Shown in pieces: positions 33,700-42,700 of a DNA stretch of 64,000 bases; the stretch's first letter is position 1, and every line of letters starts with the position of its first letter. The notes under the pieces were generated by a model. That model was not told where the DNA came from. It did not search any database and saw nothing but the letters and a program-made list of their open reading frames with translations. The stretch lies in assembly GCA_009914755.4 (NCBI GenBank), contig CP068257.2, positions 18,912,001-18,976,000 of the forward strand, written 5' to 3'. The stretch comes from the human T2T-CHM13v2.0 reference genome, Homo sapiens. A program made the translations under genes and the position numbers.

Positions 33700-34478
<779 letters not shown>

Positions 34479-35680: not shown

Positions 35681-35747
35681 GACAAGCTATTTACAAACTT
35701 ATTGAAGAAATGCAAAGCAACAAAGCCAAAATAAACTGTAGAACAAG
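35681..35747 (+). repeat. Left arm of ~80-bp inverted repeat (continues at 36031-36043 after an Alu insertion)
   Basis: gacaagctatttacaaacttattgaagaaatgcaaagcaacaaagccaaaataaactgtagaacaag is about 92% identical (5 mismatches in 67 bp) to the reverse complement of 39259-39325. Identity resumes after the Alu with agattttaaaaat, matching the reverse complement of 39247-39258. Confidence 0.8.
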
Positions 35748-36027
<280 letters not shown>

Positions 36028-36159
36028 AAAAGATTTTAAAAATGAAAAACTTGGAGGACATTAACGTCTGATTTCACAACTTATTATAATAGTACAATAA
36101 TTAAGAAAGTGGTATATTGGTGACAGAAAAGGTAAATATGCCAATGGAAGAAGTAGAGC

Positions 36160-36313
36160 CTATATATATATATACCCAGATATATATATATATATATATA
36201 CCCAGATATATATATATATATATACCCAGATATATATATATATACCCAGATATATATATATATATATACCCAGATATATATATATATACCCAGATATATA
36301 TATATATATACCC

Positions 36314-36360
<47 letters not shown>

Positions 36361-36559
36361 CAGATACATACATATACCCAGGAGGGGTGTGTGTGTGTAT
36401 ATATACCTGGGAGGGGGTGTGTATGTGTCTGTGTGTGTGTATATATTTATAAATTTATATGCAGAAGGGTGTATACACACACACACTTGGAATGGTGTAT
36501 GTATCCATATATACACATATATATGTGGGAGTGTGTGTATATATATAGACAAGAGGATG

Positions 36560-36619
<60 letters not shown>

Positions 36620-37130
36620 CCCAGGAGGGTGCATATATAGATATATACAGCGAGGGTGTGTGTATATATACACACACACACACACACACATATATCCAGG
36701 TGTATATAAATATATACATACAAGCGGGAGGGTGTGTGTATATATATATATATGCGGGAGGGTGTATATATATATACATACACACCCAAGAGGGTGTGTG
36801 TATATATATATACCTGGAAGGGTGCATATATATATGTGTATATATATATACCTGGCAGGGGGTATATATACATACCTAGGAGGGGTGTGTGTATATATTT
36901 TTATATACCCGGGAGTGGGTGTATATATATATACATACACACTCAGGAGTGTGTGCATATATATGTATCCGAGAGTAGGTATATATGTGTGTGTGTATAT
37001 ATATATGTGTGTGTGTGTACATATATACACACACACACACACATATACACACCTGGGAGTGGGTATTGGAGGGGGTATATATGTAGATATACACCCTGGA
37101 GTTGGTATATAAATATACACCCAGGAGTGG

Positions 37131-37192
<62 letters not shown>

Positions 37193-37234
37193 CTGAGAGT
37201 GTGTGTGTGTGTGTATATATATATATAAACACCC

Positions 37235-37282
<48 letters not shown>

Positions 37283-37434
37283 GTATATGTATACCTGGGA
37301 GTGGGTATGTATATGTATACCTGGAAGTGGGTATATATAGATATATATATCTATATATGCCTGGGAGTGGGTATATGTGAGTGTATATATATATATGGGG
37401 GCAGGTATAATATATATATAATGGGAGTGGGTTA

Positions 37435-37488
<54 letters not shown>

Positions 37489-37557
37489 TACCCAGGAGGG
37501 GTTATACATATATATACGTGGGGTTGGGATGTATATATACCCGGCAGTGGGTATGTG

Positions 37558-37599
<42 letters not shown>

Positions 37600-37812
37600 C
37601 CGGAGTGGGTATATATATATACACCCGGGAGTGGGTATATATATATACACCCGAGAGTGGGTATATATATATACAGCCGGGAGTGGGTATATATATACCC
37701 AGTAGTGGGTATATATATACCCAGTAGTGGGTATATATATACCTGGGGGAGGGAATATATATATATACCCAAGAGGGGTAGGGGTATATATATATATATA
37801 TGTGTGTGTGTG

Positions 37813-37858
<46 letters not shown>

Positions 37859-38357
37859 AGGGAGTGGGTATATATGCATATATACAACTGGGAGTGGGTA
37901 TATATACATATATATATGCAGACACATACCCAGGAGTGTATATATATATACCTGAGAGTGTGTGTGTATATATAAATATACACACATACACCCGAGAGTG
38001 GGTATGTATATGTATATACCCAGGAGTGGGTATGTATATATACACCCGGGTATGTATATGTATATACCCGGGAGTGGGTATGTATATATACCAGGGAGTG
38101 GGTATATATATACCTGGGTGGGGGTATATATATGTATATACCCATGTGGGGGTGTATATATATATATATAATATATATATATATATACACACACACCCAG
38201 GAGTGGGTATATATATATATACACCCGGGAGCAGTTATACACCACTCCCAGGCTTATATAGATTATACCCACTCTCGGATATGTATATATACACACACCC
38301 ACCCCTCCCGGATACATATATACACCCATCTGGGTATATATATATACCCACTCCCAG

Positions 38358-38396
<39 letters not shown>

Positions 38397-38606
38397 CACT
38401 CCCAGGTGTATATATGTGTATACCAACTGCCAGGTATATGTGTATATACCCCAACCCGCGTATATATATACGAACTCCCAGGTATATAAGTATATATTTA
38501 GCTGCTCCTGGGAGCAGCTAAATACACACACACCTGGGTTGGTAGGGTGTATATATATACACACACACACCCAGGAGGGGAGGATTATATATATATATAT
38601 GTGGTG

Positions 38607-38643
<37 letters not shown>

Positions 38644-38653
38644 GTGGTGTGTG

Positions 38654-38708
<55 letters not shown>

Positions 38709-38766
38709 ACCTGGGAGGGGGTAGTGTGTGTGTATATATATACACACTATATATATATACACACAG

Positions 38767-38797
<31 letters not shown>

Positions 38798-38902
38798 CTG
38801 GGAGGGGGTATATATATGAGCAGGTGTGTGTGTGTGTGTGTGTGTATGTATATATATATATATATACACACACACACCCAGGAGGGGTTATATGTGTGTG
38901 TT

Positions 38903-38949
<47 letters not shown>

Positions 38950-39085
38950 CCTGGAGGGGGTATATGTGTGTGCATGTGTGTTTGTGTGTGTGTGCGTGTG
39001 TGTGTGTATATACCCGGGAGGGGTATATGTGTGTGTATATATATACCCAGGAGTTGGTATATGTGTATGTATATATACCCTATAT
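36160..39085. repeat. 2.9-kb compound simple-repeat/minisatellite array of (TA)n and (CA)n/(TG)n blocks punctuated by a recurring ACC(C/T)GGGAG(T/G)GGGT-type core
   Basis: The first ~200 bp are about eight copies of (TA)n-ACCCAGA. After that, roughly 70 units of variable length follow the pattern (TA)n(CA)n-CCCGGGAGTGGGT-(TG)n(TA)n, with long pure (CA)n, (TG)n and (TA)n tracts, for example 36560-36602, 37131-37180 and 37237-37270. The very long Y/I/C/V-rich ORFs in the supplied track are translation artefacts of this array. Confidence 0.9.
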
Positions 39086-39123
39086 AAAAAAAATATTGAT
39101 ATTTTATATCGATATATAGATAT

Positions 39124-39180
39124 GTATCACTGCAATTGGCTACTTTTAGACTCCTGGTGATTGGTGCGTTTTACAGAATA
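39124..39180 (-). mobile_element. Short LTR12-like fragment (~57 bp), reverse orientation, at right edge of the array
   Basis: Reverse complement attctgtaaaacgcaccaatcaccaggagtctaaaagtagccaattgcagtga is about 90% identical to 33826-33878 of the LTR12 fragment in this window. Confidence 0.55.
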
Positions 39181-39246
39181 TAATATATAAATATATAGAT
39201 ATGGATTTATAAATATATCAATATAAAAAATATATGCCCTGTATGT

Positions 39247-39325
39247 ATTTTTAAAAATCTTGTTTTACAGTTTATTTCGGCTTTGTTGCTTTGCATTTCT
39301 TCAATAAATTTGGAAACAGCTTGTC
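39247..39325 (-). repeat. Right arm of ~80-bp inverted repeat flanking the array locus
   Basis: Reverse complement gacaagctgtttccaaatttattgaagaaatgcaaagcaacaaagccgaaataaactgtaaaacaagatttttaaaaat aligns to the left arm at 35681-35747 and 36031-36043. Confidence 0.8.
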
Positions 39326-39439
39326 TAGTAATAGATGTTATATACATATATATAACCAATTTGTTTTTTATAGAGCTATGAAAGCATTTAACATACAAAA
39401 GAGTGTATTTTCAATAAATTGTCTTGAAGCAAGTGACTA

Positions 39440-39730
39440 TCAATAATAAAAAATAAAACTTGAATGTTACCTCATACCACAGCCTTATTATAATTAATAA
39501 ATATAATCAATATAATATAATTATAATTATCATAATATATAGTTTTATAAGATGTAGTATTATAACTAATAATTTAGTATTCCAATTAATAATTAATTAT
39601 AATTATTATAATACTATAATATAATATAGTATTAGAAAACATGATGGTTGCATAGTATAATTAATTATATTAATATAATACTAAAATAGTAATTAATAAA
39701 AATAATTAATCAAATTAATTTGTGTATTAG
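39440..39730. repeat. AT-rich (~90% A+T) low-complexity tract full of short palindromes (aattaatt, ataatat, atatcgatat nearby)
   Basis: ataatcaatataatataattataattatcataatatat...ataattaattatattaatataatactaaaatagtaattaataaaaataattaatcaaattaatt. Confidence 0.85.
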
Positions 39731-42700
39731 AGTTGAAGAGATCATTTAACTTTGAAATCTAGAACTCTAAAAATTCCTGGAAAAAATATTTCTGACCTTT
39801 AGATGAGCCAATATGACAATTTTACAAAGAATACAAACACTTCTTAAAATGATCAATTGGACTTCATCTAAATCAAAAATATATTTGAAAAACAACACTG
39901 GAGAAGGAGAGTGAGAGACAGAGAAAGAAAGAGAGAGATTTTAAAAGAAAGTCACTCCTTAAAAGGGAGAGGAAATATTCACAATATACAAATATATGTA
40001 ATGATTGAGTTGAATGAAGAATCTAGAATATAATGAATAATTAACTATGAGGCAAAAAAAAAATGGCTAAAGTCTTGAACAGACATTTCACAAAAAATGT
40101 TATGTAAATTACACTTCATTAGCTATCAGGAAAGTGCAAATTAAAACCATAATATAAAGTACTTTTTTTTTACCTTTTCTATGTTTATATATGTTTAGAT
40201 ACACAAATGCTTACCATTGTGTTACAGATGTCCATAGTATTTCATACAAGTAACATGCTATACAGGTTTGTAACCTAGGAGCAATAGCATAGGCCTTAAA
40301 GCTAAGGTGAGTAGGAAGCTGTATCATCGAGGTTTTTGTAAGTATACCCTATGATGTTCACATGAAAACAAAATCACCTAATGACACATTTCTCAGAACA
40401 TATTCCCATCATTAAGTGACACATTACTGTATCATTGTTGCAATGTCTAATTTTTACTTCAATTCTTTCAGTTTCTATTTTATGTCTTTTGTAGATTTGT
40501 TGTTAAGTACATATATGTTAATGATTGTTACATCTTTCCGATGGATTGACCCTTTATAATTAGGAAATGTCCCTCTAGTAATATTTTTTTCTTTAAAGAC
40601 TATGTTGTCTGACAGCTTTTCTGGCTCTTTTTATGATGTTTGCAGAGTATTTCCTTTTTAATACTTTTACTTTCAACCTATTTGTGTTATTTGAATTTCA
40701 AATACATCTTCTTTAGAAAGCCTATAGTTGAATCTTACTTAATTCAGCCTGACAGTCTTCACTTTCGATTGGATTATTTAATCCATTCATACGCTGTAAT
40801 TGATAGGATTTCATTTATATTTTACATTTAGCTTTTTGTTTTTTATATATCTTCTATTTTTTAGTTTCTCCATTTGTTCTTTCTTGCATCCTTTTGCATT
40901 AAATATTTTCCAACATTTTAATTCAATTAATATTTTAGTTTTTGAGGTTTTTCTTAGCGGATACACTAGGGATTATGGTATAAATCTTAACTGATCATAC
41001 TCTAGCTTTATAATGACTTAGTTACAATAAGATGTTAAAATATTCCACCTATACTGTTCATTTCCTTCTCCACTTTTTTATGCAGTTACTGGTATATATA
41101 CTGTTTATATTTGATATAGACCTAACAGTACATGGTTATACATATTACTTTGTATTACCTTATGTATTTTAAAGAGGCTAACGAAAGAAGAAAAACAAAG
41201 ACATATTTATAGATTTTGTTATAGCAACCCTTTTATTTACTGTTTCTTGCTCTCTTCATTTCTTGTGGATTTGAGCTACTAACTAGTGTCATTTGTTTGT
41301 GCCAATACAGCTTTTTTTTCACTCAACTGTTTTATGCTGTTATTGGCAAATGTATTACATTTCTAAAAGTTATAGGTTCAGCAGTGAAGTACATACATAT
41401 ACTTTTGAGACAATTGCTTTTTAAATCAGTAAAGAGAAGAAAAGAGGAAACAAAATGCAATTATACAGTCTTTTGCAACTACCAACATAATTAGCTTTAC
41501 CTGCACTCATTGTTTTTTATTCTAATCTAATGTCTCGCTTTTATTTTAAAGAACTTCCTTTAGAATTTCTTGTAAGGTATGTCTTTAAGCAATGATTGTG
41601 AAGCTAAAATTGTCTTTATTTTTCATCATTTTTGGAACTTAGTTATAATTAGCAAAACATGAATATAAGACTCTTGATTTGCAATTCTTTTGTTTTGTTT
41701 TGTTTTGTTTTCCTACTTTCATCTCTTTGAATCTGTTGTACCATTCTGAAATTCATTGTTGAGATAAGAAGTCAGCCAACAGTCTTACTGGGATGCAAAC
41801 ATGCATACTGAGTCATTTCTCCATTGATGTTTTAAAGATTTTCTCTCTGTCTTTGACTTTTAACATTTGATTATGACGTATCTGAATGTAGATCTCTTTG
41901 TGGTTATCCTCTTTGGAGTTTGTCATACCTCTTGAGTGAGCAGATTAAATTTTTATCAGATCTGGAAGTCTTTCAGCCCTTATTCCTCTATGTTGTTTCT
42001 TCTTCTTTCTCTCCCTTCTCATACATATTTTCCGGGATAAATGTGTATCACATCCTTTCAGGCACTATTTTTCTTGAATTGTTCTTTGATTGGTGTTTCA
42101 GATTACATAATCTCTATTGATCTATCTTCAAGTTTGATCATTCTTTTATTCTCCCAATTCAAAACTATTTTTAAATTCCTCTGGTGAATGTCTAATTTGG
42201 GTTGTTGCATTTTTCCAACTGCAGAATTTCCATTTCATTATTTATAATAATTTCTATGATTTTATCAATACTCTGTATTTAATAAGATACTTTCATTTTA
42301 TCTTCTTGCATTTTTTTTTGCATAGTTTACTTTTTGAACATATTTACGGTAGCTACATTGGGTTTGTGATGGCTGATTTTATGGTGAACTTTACTGAGAC
42401 AGGAAGTGCCAAAAATCGTTATTTCTAGGAGTGTCTTTGAGAGTTTTCTGGATGAAATTAGTATCTGAACCAGTGCATTCAGTAAATTAGATGCATCTCC
42501 TCCAAATGTGCATGGGTATTGTTTAATCTTGTGAGGGCCTGCATAAAATAAAAAGGTGGAGGAATGAGAAATTTGCCCTTTTTTTCTTCCTGCTTGCCTC
42601 CATAAACTAGGACCTCAGTCTTCTCCTGCCCTCTTTTGGGATTTATATCATCAGCTTCTCTGGTTCTCAGTCCTGTTGAAACAGCCTCGTTGTCTGAGTG

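What the first reader, a model, noticed from the sequence alone, without database searches (positions are those of the whole stretch)
38222..38525. Internal ~275-bp inverted block inside the array, bounded by GGGAGCAG microhomology and a 14-2-14 palindrome
Throughout the array the core reads ACCCGGGAGTGGGTATATA on the + strand. Between about 38235 and 38510 the units appear in reverse complement (TACCCACTCCCAGGTGTATATA, ATACCCACTCTCGGATATG and so on). The proximal junction is ...tatatacacccGGGAGCAG|ttatacaccactcccagg.... The distal junction is the near-perfect palindrome tatttaGCTGCTCC-tg-GGAGCAGCtaaata at 38496-38525. Both breakpoints therefore carry GGGAGCAG/CTGCTCC. This is the signature expected from a replication-based template switch (fork stalling and template switching, or fold-back priming) in a hairpin-prone repeat, not from neutral unit turnover.
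Basis: seen in the sequence. Interest (0 to 1): 0.55.

Follow-up and report, generated by a model that had tools for sequence, protein, structure and literature searches.

The report
Small inversion inside AT-rich minisatellite
About ten units (274 bp) of a 2.9-kb AT-rich tandem repeat in a primate genome are flipped, and the junctions carry extra copied bases, so this is a real but ordinary scar of a copying or repair error with no sign of function.

Summary
The minisatellite at 36161-39090 has units of (TA)n plus the core CCyGGGAGTGGG. It reads forward everywhere except 38235-38508. All 11 reverse-type core 6-mers lie in that block and none of the 71 forward-type ones do. GC skew flips from +0.26 to -0.37 and back to +0.25.

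It is the only complex perfect palindrome of that size in the window. GGAGCAG/CTGCTCC occurs three times in the array, all at the two junctions.

A pure cut-and-paste inversion cannot add a copy, so some copying occurred. When reverse-complemented, the block is only 74-77% identical to any other array segment. That is the normal level between segments, so it is not a recent fold-back duplicate or a fold-back read chimera. Its rare variants run in the same order as those at 37491-37690.

The best reading is an in-situ inversion of one ~283-bp higher-order copy lying between two direct GGAGCAGCTAAATA units, by a template switch and return. Repair of staggered breaks by end joining is a live rival. 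No orthologue, second haplotype or reads could be obtained. This is a known kind of event and of low interest.

The parts
36161..39090 (+). AT-rich minisatellite. Units are about 22-30 bp: (TA)n, often with CA/TG runs, plus the core CCyGGGAGTGGG. Cores of the GGAGGGG type sit at both edges of the array.
   Evidence: TRF periods of 22-30 nt and multiples; core table; sequence.
36161..38234 (+). Left domain, forward orientation. GC skew +0.26.
38224..38234 (+). Unit G1: forward core variant CCCGGGAGCAG. GGAGCAG at 38228-38234 is the left arm of the 7-nt inverted repeat that brackets the block.
38235..38241 (.). TTATACA. The breakpoint is ambiguous over these bases. They read equally well as a forward spacer start (compare GGAGGGG+TTATACA at 37501) or as the reverse complement of TGTATAA belonging to the first inverted unit. 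At 7 nt this is the shortest spacer between cores in the array.
38235..38508 (-). Inverted block of 274 bp. It holds nine reversed cores (38242, 38268, 38298, 38325, 38347, 38395, 38423, 38449, 38471) with their spacers, plus an inverted half G unit. GC skew -0.37.
   Evidence: The reverse complement aligns at 74-77% to forward segments.
38495..38508 (-). Left palindrome arm TATTTAGCTGCTCC, an inverted copy of GGAGCAGCTAAATA. It contains CTGCTCC (38502-38508), the right arm of the 7-nt bracketing inverted repeat.
38509..38510 (.). TG, the palindrome centre. It falls at the core's own CCyGGG dyad.
38511..38524 (+). Right palindrome arm GGAGCAGCTAAATA (unit G2). Forward orientation resumes here.
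   Evidence: The DNA hairpin has -12.4 kcal/mol, z = -5.7.
38511..39090 (+). Right domain, forward orientation. Cores are of the GGAGGGG type with long TA/CA/TG spacers. GC skew +0.25.
37491..37690 (+). Forward paralogue of the block. It carries the same order of rare variants: a G-like core followed by TTATACA, GGGTTGG, GGCAGT, a long TA run, GAGAGTGGG and a GCC-core.

Best explanation
The feature is a real inversion, in place, of one ~283-bp higher-order segment (about ten units) of a non-coding AT-rich minisatellite in an Alu-bearing primate genome.

Inferred ancestor: A - G1 - B - G2 - C, all forward. G1 and G2 were two consecutive copies of the rare unit CCyGGGAGCAGCTAAATA, each starting a higher-order copy.

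Inferred event: one switch and return of a polymerase during replication or break-induced repair.
1. The nascent strand copied A and the G1 core as far as GGAGCAG.
2. It moved to the complementary template near the left edge of G2.
3. It copied B and the right half of G1 backwards, giving revcomp(B) + TATTTAG + CTGCTCC.
4. It returned to the original template at G2, with CC microhomology at the core dyad.

This one event yields the retained forward GGAGCAG, the inverted block and an inverted second copy of GGAGCAG. The inverted G1 half lands next to the identical G2 half, which makes the perfect 14-2-14 palindrome.

Shown: the orientation flip, the junction sequences, the extra copy, and the colinearity of the block with a forward paralogue. 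Inferred: the ancestral state and the polymerase-switch mechanism.

The block has no detectable function. Its likely consequences are (a) a new stable hairpin or cruciform site and (b) a barrier to unequal exchange. The block sits exactly between the central GGAGTGGG-type domain and the right-hand GGAGGGG-type domain.
For: - The inversion is real in the sequence.
- GGAGCAG/CTGCTCC occurs only three times in the array, all at the junctions. About 0.06 occurrences of GGAGCAG on one strand are expected by chance in 2.9 kb. A conservative inversion cannot raise the copy number.
- The arrangement is a(7) - inverted spacer - a'(7), with the inner edges of the repeat at the block boundaries. This is the four-point '3-1-2-4' pattern (PMC5453318) and the pattern of inversions flanked by inverted repeats (PMC8755829).
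- The reverse-complemented block carries G, GGGTTGG (38451), GGCAGT (38426), a long TA run, GAGAGTGGG (38268) and a GCC-core. The forward segment 37491-37690 has the same order (37521, 37543, 37653, 37676). The right flank restarts with G (38511) then GGGTTGG (38536) (alignments). This fits forward higher-order copies of which one was flipped in place, and it explains why two identical G halves abut.
- The block is as diverged from other segments (74-77%) as forward segments are from each other (70-76%). It is therefore resident sequence, not a fresh copy.
- The palindrome is unique in the window and absent from simulations.
Against: - No ancestral or alternative allele could be examined. Four scans of metagenome and genome contigs and one of viral contigs found nothing. 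The two-G ancestor is therefore an assumption.
- I could not find convincing complementarity to guide the first switch. The nascent ...GGGAGCAG end is identical, not complementary, to the landing strand, so the microhomology is weak.
- At ~270 nt the inverted segment is about ten times longer than the template-switch inversions documented in PMC5453318 and PMC8755829.
- One staggered break plus one blunt break, with fill-in and end joining, gives identical junctions.
- The higher-order structure of the array is loose. The three-way alignment has 73% mean column identity, so the colinearity argument rests on about five rare variants.
Confidence: 0.5

Rival explanations
1. Inversion by two double-strand breaks repaired by end joining. 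One break in G1 is staggered with a 7-nt overhang (GGAGCAG) that is filled in. The other, nearly blunt, lies just 5' of TGGGAGCAG in G2. The fragment is re-ligated in reverse. In a variant, the left palindrome arm is a 14-nt snap-back templated insertion made by polymerase theta at the right-hand end.
For: - The predicted product, A - a - revcomp(B) - revcomp(a) - C, is exactly what is seen.
- The proximal inter-core spacer is only 7 nt, against 10 nt or more elsewhere, which fits loss of a few bases at a joined end.
- The array is strongly hairpin-prone and so plausibly break-prone.
Against: - It needs two independent breaks within about 2 nt of homologous positions in the only two G units, with nothing known to target them.
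- A 7-nt stagger is unusual for spontaneous breaks.
- The snap-back variant leaves the third GGAGCAG, at the proximal junction, as coincidence.
Confidence: 0.25
2. Inverted insertion or duplication by multi-step template switching (FoSTeS/MMBIR). The ancestor had a single G unit (A - CCyGGGAGCAGCTAAATA - C). The nascent strand copied G, folded back on it for 14 nt, then copied about 260 nt from a misaligned array segment on a sister or homologue in inverted orientation. It then returned to G and re-copied GGGAGCAG.
For: - All three G copies would derive from one rare unit, which removes the need for two G units in the ancestor.
- Deleting 38235-38510 restores a regular unit, CCCGGGAGCAG+CTAAATACACACACA+CCTGGG.
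- CCCGGGAGCAG and CCTGGGAGCAG look like an 11-nt target duplication with one mismatch.
- The array's right flank also carries inverted copies of sequences from 3.5 and 5.3 kb away. The locus may therefore have a history of such events.
Against: - No donor exists. The best match of the reverse-complemented block is 74-77% identical, no better than background.
- It needs three switches instead of one.
- The G-then-GGGTTGG order in the block and in the right flank is explained more simply by adjacent higher-order copies.
Confidence: 0.15
3. Assembly or cloning artefact. The flip arose in a bacterial clone of a hairpin-prone insert or from mis-assembly of low-complexity reads, and is absent from the real chromosome.
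For: - AT-rich palindromic DNA is unstable in E. coli clones and hard to assemble (general knowledge).
- The provenance of the window is unknown and no reads were available.
Against: - Fold-back chimeras give exact mirror copies. Here only 14 nt are mirrored, and the block has its own diverged sequence with no duplicate elsewhere.
- The block is far shorter than a long read, and the junctions are clean and in unit register.
Confidence: 0.07

Closest known systems
Short template-switch mutations: the four-point model, event type 3-1-2-4 / 1-3-4-2 (Loytynoja & Goldman 2017, PMC5453318), and the classic Ripley quasi-palindrome model
   Same: An inverted repeat (GGAGCAG ... CTGCTCC) separated by an inverted spacer. 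One extra reverse-complement copy is created. A perfect hairpin-forming palindrome is the by-product.
   Different: The inverted spacer here is about 267 nt, against tens of nt in the paper. The event lies inside a tandem array, a kind of region those genome scans filter out.
Microinversions flanked by inverted repeats between human and chimpanzee (Potapova, Kondrashov & Mirkin 2022, PMC8755829)
   Same: A perfect short inverted repeat whose inner edges abut the inverted segment. The candidate mechanisms are the same: template switching at the inverted repeat, or MMBIR repair of a break.
   Different: Their events are 17-33 nt and lie in unique sequence. This one is about ten times longer, lies in a minisatellite, and has a third copy of the repeat forming a palindrome.
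FoSTeS / MMBIR and serial replication slippage in trans (Lee, Carvalho & Lupski 2007; Hastings et al. 2009; Chen et al. 2005; cited from my own knowledge and as named in PMC5453318)
   Same: A replicative rearrangement with an orientation change, short junctional homology and small duplications at the breakpoints.
   Different: Those models were built for kb-to-Mb complex rearrangements with identifiable donor segments. Here the scale is 0.3 kb and no donor can be identified.
Palindromic AT-rich repeats (PATRRs) and AT-rich minisatellite fragile sites such as FRA16B and FRA10B (from my own knowledge; FRA16B AT-rich minisatellite mentioned in papers listed)
   Same: AT-rich, strongly hairpin-prone tandem or palindromic DNA. 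The array is also bracketed by an inverted repeat.
   Different: It is not a near-perfect long palindrome. The arms formed by the block and its flanks are only 70-77% complementary, and symmetry is perfect for only 14 nt. The unit sequence differs, and no link to fragility or translocation is known. No paper was found for the unit.

Membership tests
Minisatellite / VNTR | Head-to-tail tandem units of about 10-100 bp | tested here: met
   TRF finds periods of 22-30 nt and multiples across 36161-39077. A regular alternation of core and spacer is seen.
Template-switch event (four-point model, type 3-1-2-4) | A segment present as the reverse complement of the adjacent reference sequence | not testable with these tools
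   This needs an ancestral or outgroup allele. None was found. The inversion is shown only relative to the rest of the array.
Template-switch event (four-point model, type 3-1-2-4) | An inverted repeat created at the edges of an inverted spacer | tested here: met
   GGAGCAG at 38228-38234 and CTGCTCC at 38502-38508 abut the block. These are the only copies in the array apart from G2 at 38511.
Template-switch event (four-point model, type 3-1-2-4) | Short range (tens of bp) within one replication fork | tested here: not met
   The inverted spacer is about 267 nt. The paper restricts itself to events of a few tens of bp.
Microinversion flanked by inverted repeats (PMC8755829) | A perfect or near-perfect inverted repeat juxtaposed to the inversion boundaries | tested here: met
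   A perfect 7-nt inverted repeat with its inner edges at the block boundaries.
Microinversion flanked by inverted repeats (PMC8755829) | Length of 17-33 nt, and an exact reverse complement of the orthologue | tested here: not met
   The length is about 267-274 nt. Comparison with an orthologue was not possible.
Fold-back inverted duplication | The inverted segment is a mirror copy of the adjacent flank, starting at the junction | tested here: not met
   Anchored mirror alignments at the distal junction give 14 perfect nt, then 40/60, 79/120 and 137/200 matches. Local identity of the block to the right flank is 70.6% and to the left flank 77%, which is background level.
PATRR-type palindrome | A near-perfect AT-rich palindrome of several hundred bp with a symmetric centre | tested here: not met
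   Arm complementarity is only 70-77%. A forward-only control region folds as well as the region containing the block.
Structured RNA gene | A match to an Rfam family | tested here: not met
   No Rfam hit at gathering score anywhere in the window.

The most novel reading that the evidence does not exclude
The locus may be a recurrent hotspot for inverted copying at nested scales. Three layers are visible: a 14-nt palindrome arm; the 274-bp flipped higher-order copy; and two inverted patches of 53 and ~80 nt at the array's right edge, copied from 5.3 and 3.5 kb to the left. On this reading the AT-rich minisatellite grew at, and keeps provoking, template-switch or fold-back rearrangements. It would be a natural, PATRR-like model for replication-based inversion inside tandem repeats.
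Probability: 0.15. Interest if true: 0.5.

Novelty: new member of a known kind. Interest (0 to 1): 0.25.

Why it matters
The junctions are cleanly readable. They give an example of an orientation-changing mutation inside a tandem repeat, a kind of region that genome-wide template-switch scans filter out.

If other haplotypes or apes keep the forward state, the locus would let one test two things: whether single switch-and-return events reach ~0.3 kb, and whether an inverted block stops homogenisation across an array.

In practice, such blocks break the assumptions of VNTR genotypers and aligners. No gene, RNA or regulatory function is indicated, so the biological weight is small.

Tried and rejected
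1. Recent inverted duplication of a flank or of any array segment: rejected. The best reverse-complement match scores 166 at 74.5% identity, inside the range for forward blocks against each other (scores 113-246).
2. Extended mirror symmetry at the palindrome: only 14 nt are perfect. The weak unit-level symmetry (G then GGGTTGG on both sides) is better explained by adjacent higher-order copies.
3. The idea that the inversion makes the region exceptionally hairpin-prone: rejected by a control. The region with the block has z = -13.7 and the forward-only control z = -13.8.
4. Independent copies of the locus or junction: none found. Two patterns were scanned in metagenome contigs and two in genome contigs, and a unit pattern in viral contigs.
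5. Literature search for the unit sequence: only an unrelated KLF4 promoter paper.
6. Rfam scan of the window: nothing.
7. L1 twin priming as the origin of the inverted L1 fragments flanking the array: rejected on geometry. The 3'-most ends face each other.
8. The truncated core CCCGGG at 38045 as a second inversion junction: rejected. Orientation stays forward on both sides, and a GGG...GGG slippage deletion explains it.
9. Locus or gene identification by protein search: not attempted, because it would not bear on the question.

Full report
**Context**

The window is AT-rich, with 29-42% GC in 2-kb bins. It carries many Alu copies, so it comes from a primate genome. No structured RNA is detected.

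A complex AT-rich minisatellite lies at 36161-39090. TRF reports periods of 22-30 nt and multiples of these, with consensus units such as TATATATATATACACCCGGGAGTGGG. Each unit is a quasi-palindromic spacer, GGG-(TG)n(TA)n(CA)n-CCC, plus an asymmetric core CCyGGGAGTGGG. Only the AGTGGG tail of the core reveals orientation.

**Check of the observation**

- Fuzzy matching of the 13-mer core finds forward copies at 36406-38224 and 38710-39046, and reverse copies at 38240-38470.
- A table of GC islands shows nine C-rich reversed cores at 38242-38482, with forward cores resuming at 38533 and 38570.
- In a k-mer dot-plot restricted to informative 9-mers, reverse-complement matches outnumber forward ones only in the bins 38250-38499.
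- All 11 reverse-type core 6-mers lie in 38235-38508, and none of the 71 forward-type ones do. GC skew is +0.26, -0.37 and +0.25 for left, block and right, with Fisher p = 2.5e-9.
- The spacers are inverted too: TGTATATA follows the reversed cores.
- It is the only perfect inverted repeat of 14 nt or more in the window that is not made of dinucleotide runs or of the array's own GGG(TA)nCCC spacer. None of 20 Markov simulations produced any GC-containing perfect inverted repeat of 10 nt or more.
- As single-stranded DNA the palindrome forms a 13-bp hairpin of -12.4 kcal/mol, z = -5.7.

**What the junctions say**

GGAGCAG/CTGCTCC occurs in the 2.9-kb array exactly three times: 38228 (+), 38502 (-) and 38511 (+). 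The longer variant GCAGCTAAATA occurs only in the two palindrome arms.

The structure is therefore: A - CCCG[GGAGCAG] - inverted block - TATTTAG[CTGCTCC] - TG - [GGAGCAG]CTAAATA - C.

A conservative cut-and-paste inversion neither creates nor destroys sequence. I could not write any reconstruction in which re-inverting the block removes the third copy. So either the ancestor already had an odd cluster of G-type units, or at least 7 nt were copied during the event. This is the strongest point in favour of a copying mechanism.

The proximal breakpoint is ambiguous over TTATACA (38235-38241). These bases fit both a forward spacer (compare GGAGGGG+TTATACA at 37501) and the reverse complement of TGTATAA. 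At 7 nt it is the shortest inter-core spacer in the array.

**Is the block a copy of something?**

No. Reverse-complemented, it aligns best to 37508-37713 (score 166, 74.5% identity) and to 38052-38219 (the end of the 37850-38234 segment; 77% over 172 columns). Forward 275-bp blocks of the array match each other with scores of 113-246 and 70-76% identity.

Anchored mirror alignments at the distal junction decay to background immediately after the 14-nt arms.

This rules out a recent fold-back duplication. It also argues against a fold-back read chimera, which would give an exact mirror.

**Colinearity with a forward paralogue**

Read in forward sense, the block carries rare variants in this order: G unit, GGGTTGG (38451), GGCAGT (38426), a long TA run, GAGAGTGGG (38268), then a GCC-prefixed core.

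The forward segment 37491-37690 shows the same order: a G-like core, GGGTTGG at 37521, GGCAGT at 37543, a long TA run, GAGAGTGGG at 37653, and the GCC-core at 37676.

The right flank starts again with a G unit (38511) followed by GGGTTGG (38536) (alignments).

The simplest reading is that the array contained successive loose higher-order copies, each starting with a G-type unit. The copy between G1 (38224) and G2 (38509) was flipped in place. Placing the inverted right half of G1 against the identical right half of G2 then produces the perfect palindrome without any further assumption.

**Mechanism**

The layout a - inverted spacer - a' is the outcome of a single switch-and-return event, type 3-1-2-4 in the four-point model (PMC5453318). 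Potapova et al. found a perfect or near-perfect flanking inverted repeat at every definite human-chimpanzee microinversion. They discuss both template switching and MMBIR as causes (PMC8755829).

I favour this class of mechanism with confidence 0.5. There are caveats:
- The inverted tract is about ten times longer than the documented events.
- I found no good complementarity to guide the first switch.
- The ancestor is inferred, not observed.

The rivals are as follows.
- Staggered break plus blunt break, with fill-in and end joining. Optionally the 14-nt arm is a polymerase-theta snap-back insertion. The product is identical. Confidence 0.25.
- Multi-switch inverted insertion into a single G unit. 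This leaves the ~260-nt donor unaccounted for. Confidence 0.15.
- Artefact. Confidence 0.07.

**Hairpin-proneness**

An 831-nt stretch including the block folds at -212 kcal/mol (z = -13.7). A forward-only control stretch folds at -205 kcal/mol (z = -13.8).

The block adds one new, stable and sequence-complex hairpin, the palindrome. Otherwise it does not change folding potential measurably.

**Comparison with known systems, and novelty**

- The array is a minisatellite (membership met).
- The inversion resembles template-switch inversions flanked by inverted repeats. It meets the flanking-repeat criterion, fails the size criterion, and cannot be tested for the ancestral reverse complement.
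- It is not a PATRR and not a fold-back duplication; both were tested and not met.
- No paper mentions the unit sequence.
- No independent copy of the locus was found in the accessible collections.

I rate it a new member of a known kind, interest 0.25.

**Seen in passing**

The array's right flank contains the only two local repeats found in 39000-42000. Both are inverted copies of sequence from the left side of the array.
- 39247-39325 matches 35681-35747 plus 36030-36043. This is an old L1 ORF2 fragment, 92% identical over 73 nt, and an Alu splits the left copy.
- 39127-39179 matches 33821-33873. This is an LTR12-like CACCAATCAGC repeat, 48 of 53 identical.

Their order is not a mirror image, and both pairs are about 91-92% identical. 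This suggests one older complex rearrangement in which the array sits between inverted arms. That is the basis of the more novel, low-probability reading that the locus is a recurrent site of inverted copying.

Noticed in passing
35681-35747 + 36030-36043 versus 39247-39325: The whole array is bracketed by an inverted repeat of ~80-88 nt. It is 92% identical over 73 nt (E = 7e-25), and tblastx suggests weaker homology out to ~35605/39401. Both arms are fragments of the same stretch of an old L1 ORF2, with their 3'-most ends facing the array, so the geometry is not that of L1 twin priming.
   Followed up: partly
33821-33873 versus 39127-39179: A 53-nt piece of the LTR12-like repeat (CACCAATCAGC motifs) found 5.3 kb left of the array reappears, inverted and isolated, 40 nt from the array's right end (48 of 53 identical). 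Together with the L1 patch the order is P..Q..array..P'..Q'. Each patch is inverted but the order is not mirrored, which looks like patchwork from an old multi-step rearrangement.
   Followed up: partly
35748-36027: An Alu in minus orientation, with a probable target duplication AGAA(C)AAG, interrupts the left L1 arm. It is absent from the inverted right-hand copy, so it inserted after that copy was made.
   Followed up: partly
36161-36900, 36900-38508, 38511-39090: The array has a domain structure. GGAGGGG-type cores with long CA/TG spacers sit at both edges. The leftmost part has truncated CCCAGATA units. Homogeneous GGAGTGGG-type units fill the centre. The inverted block sits exactly at the boundary between the central and right domains.
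   Followed up: partly
38045-38050: A truncated core CCCGGG lacks AGTGGG. It looks like a palindromic left-half/left-half junction, but orientation is forward on both sides, so it is most simply a GGG...GGG slippage deletion.
   Followed up: yes
38253-38260 and 38483-38490: The rare spacer variant CTTATATA, near the left end of the block, and its reverse complement TATATAAG, near the right end, each directly follow a reversed core. They form an 8-nt inverted pair inside the block. This may be chance or a trace of a nested event.
   Followed up: no
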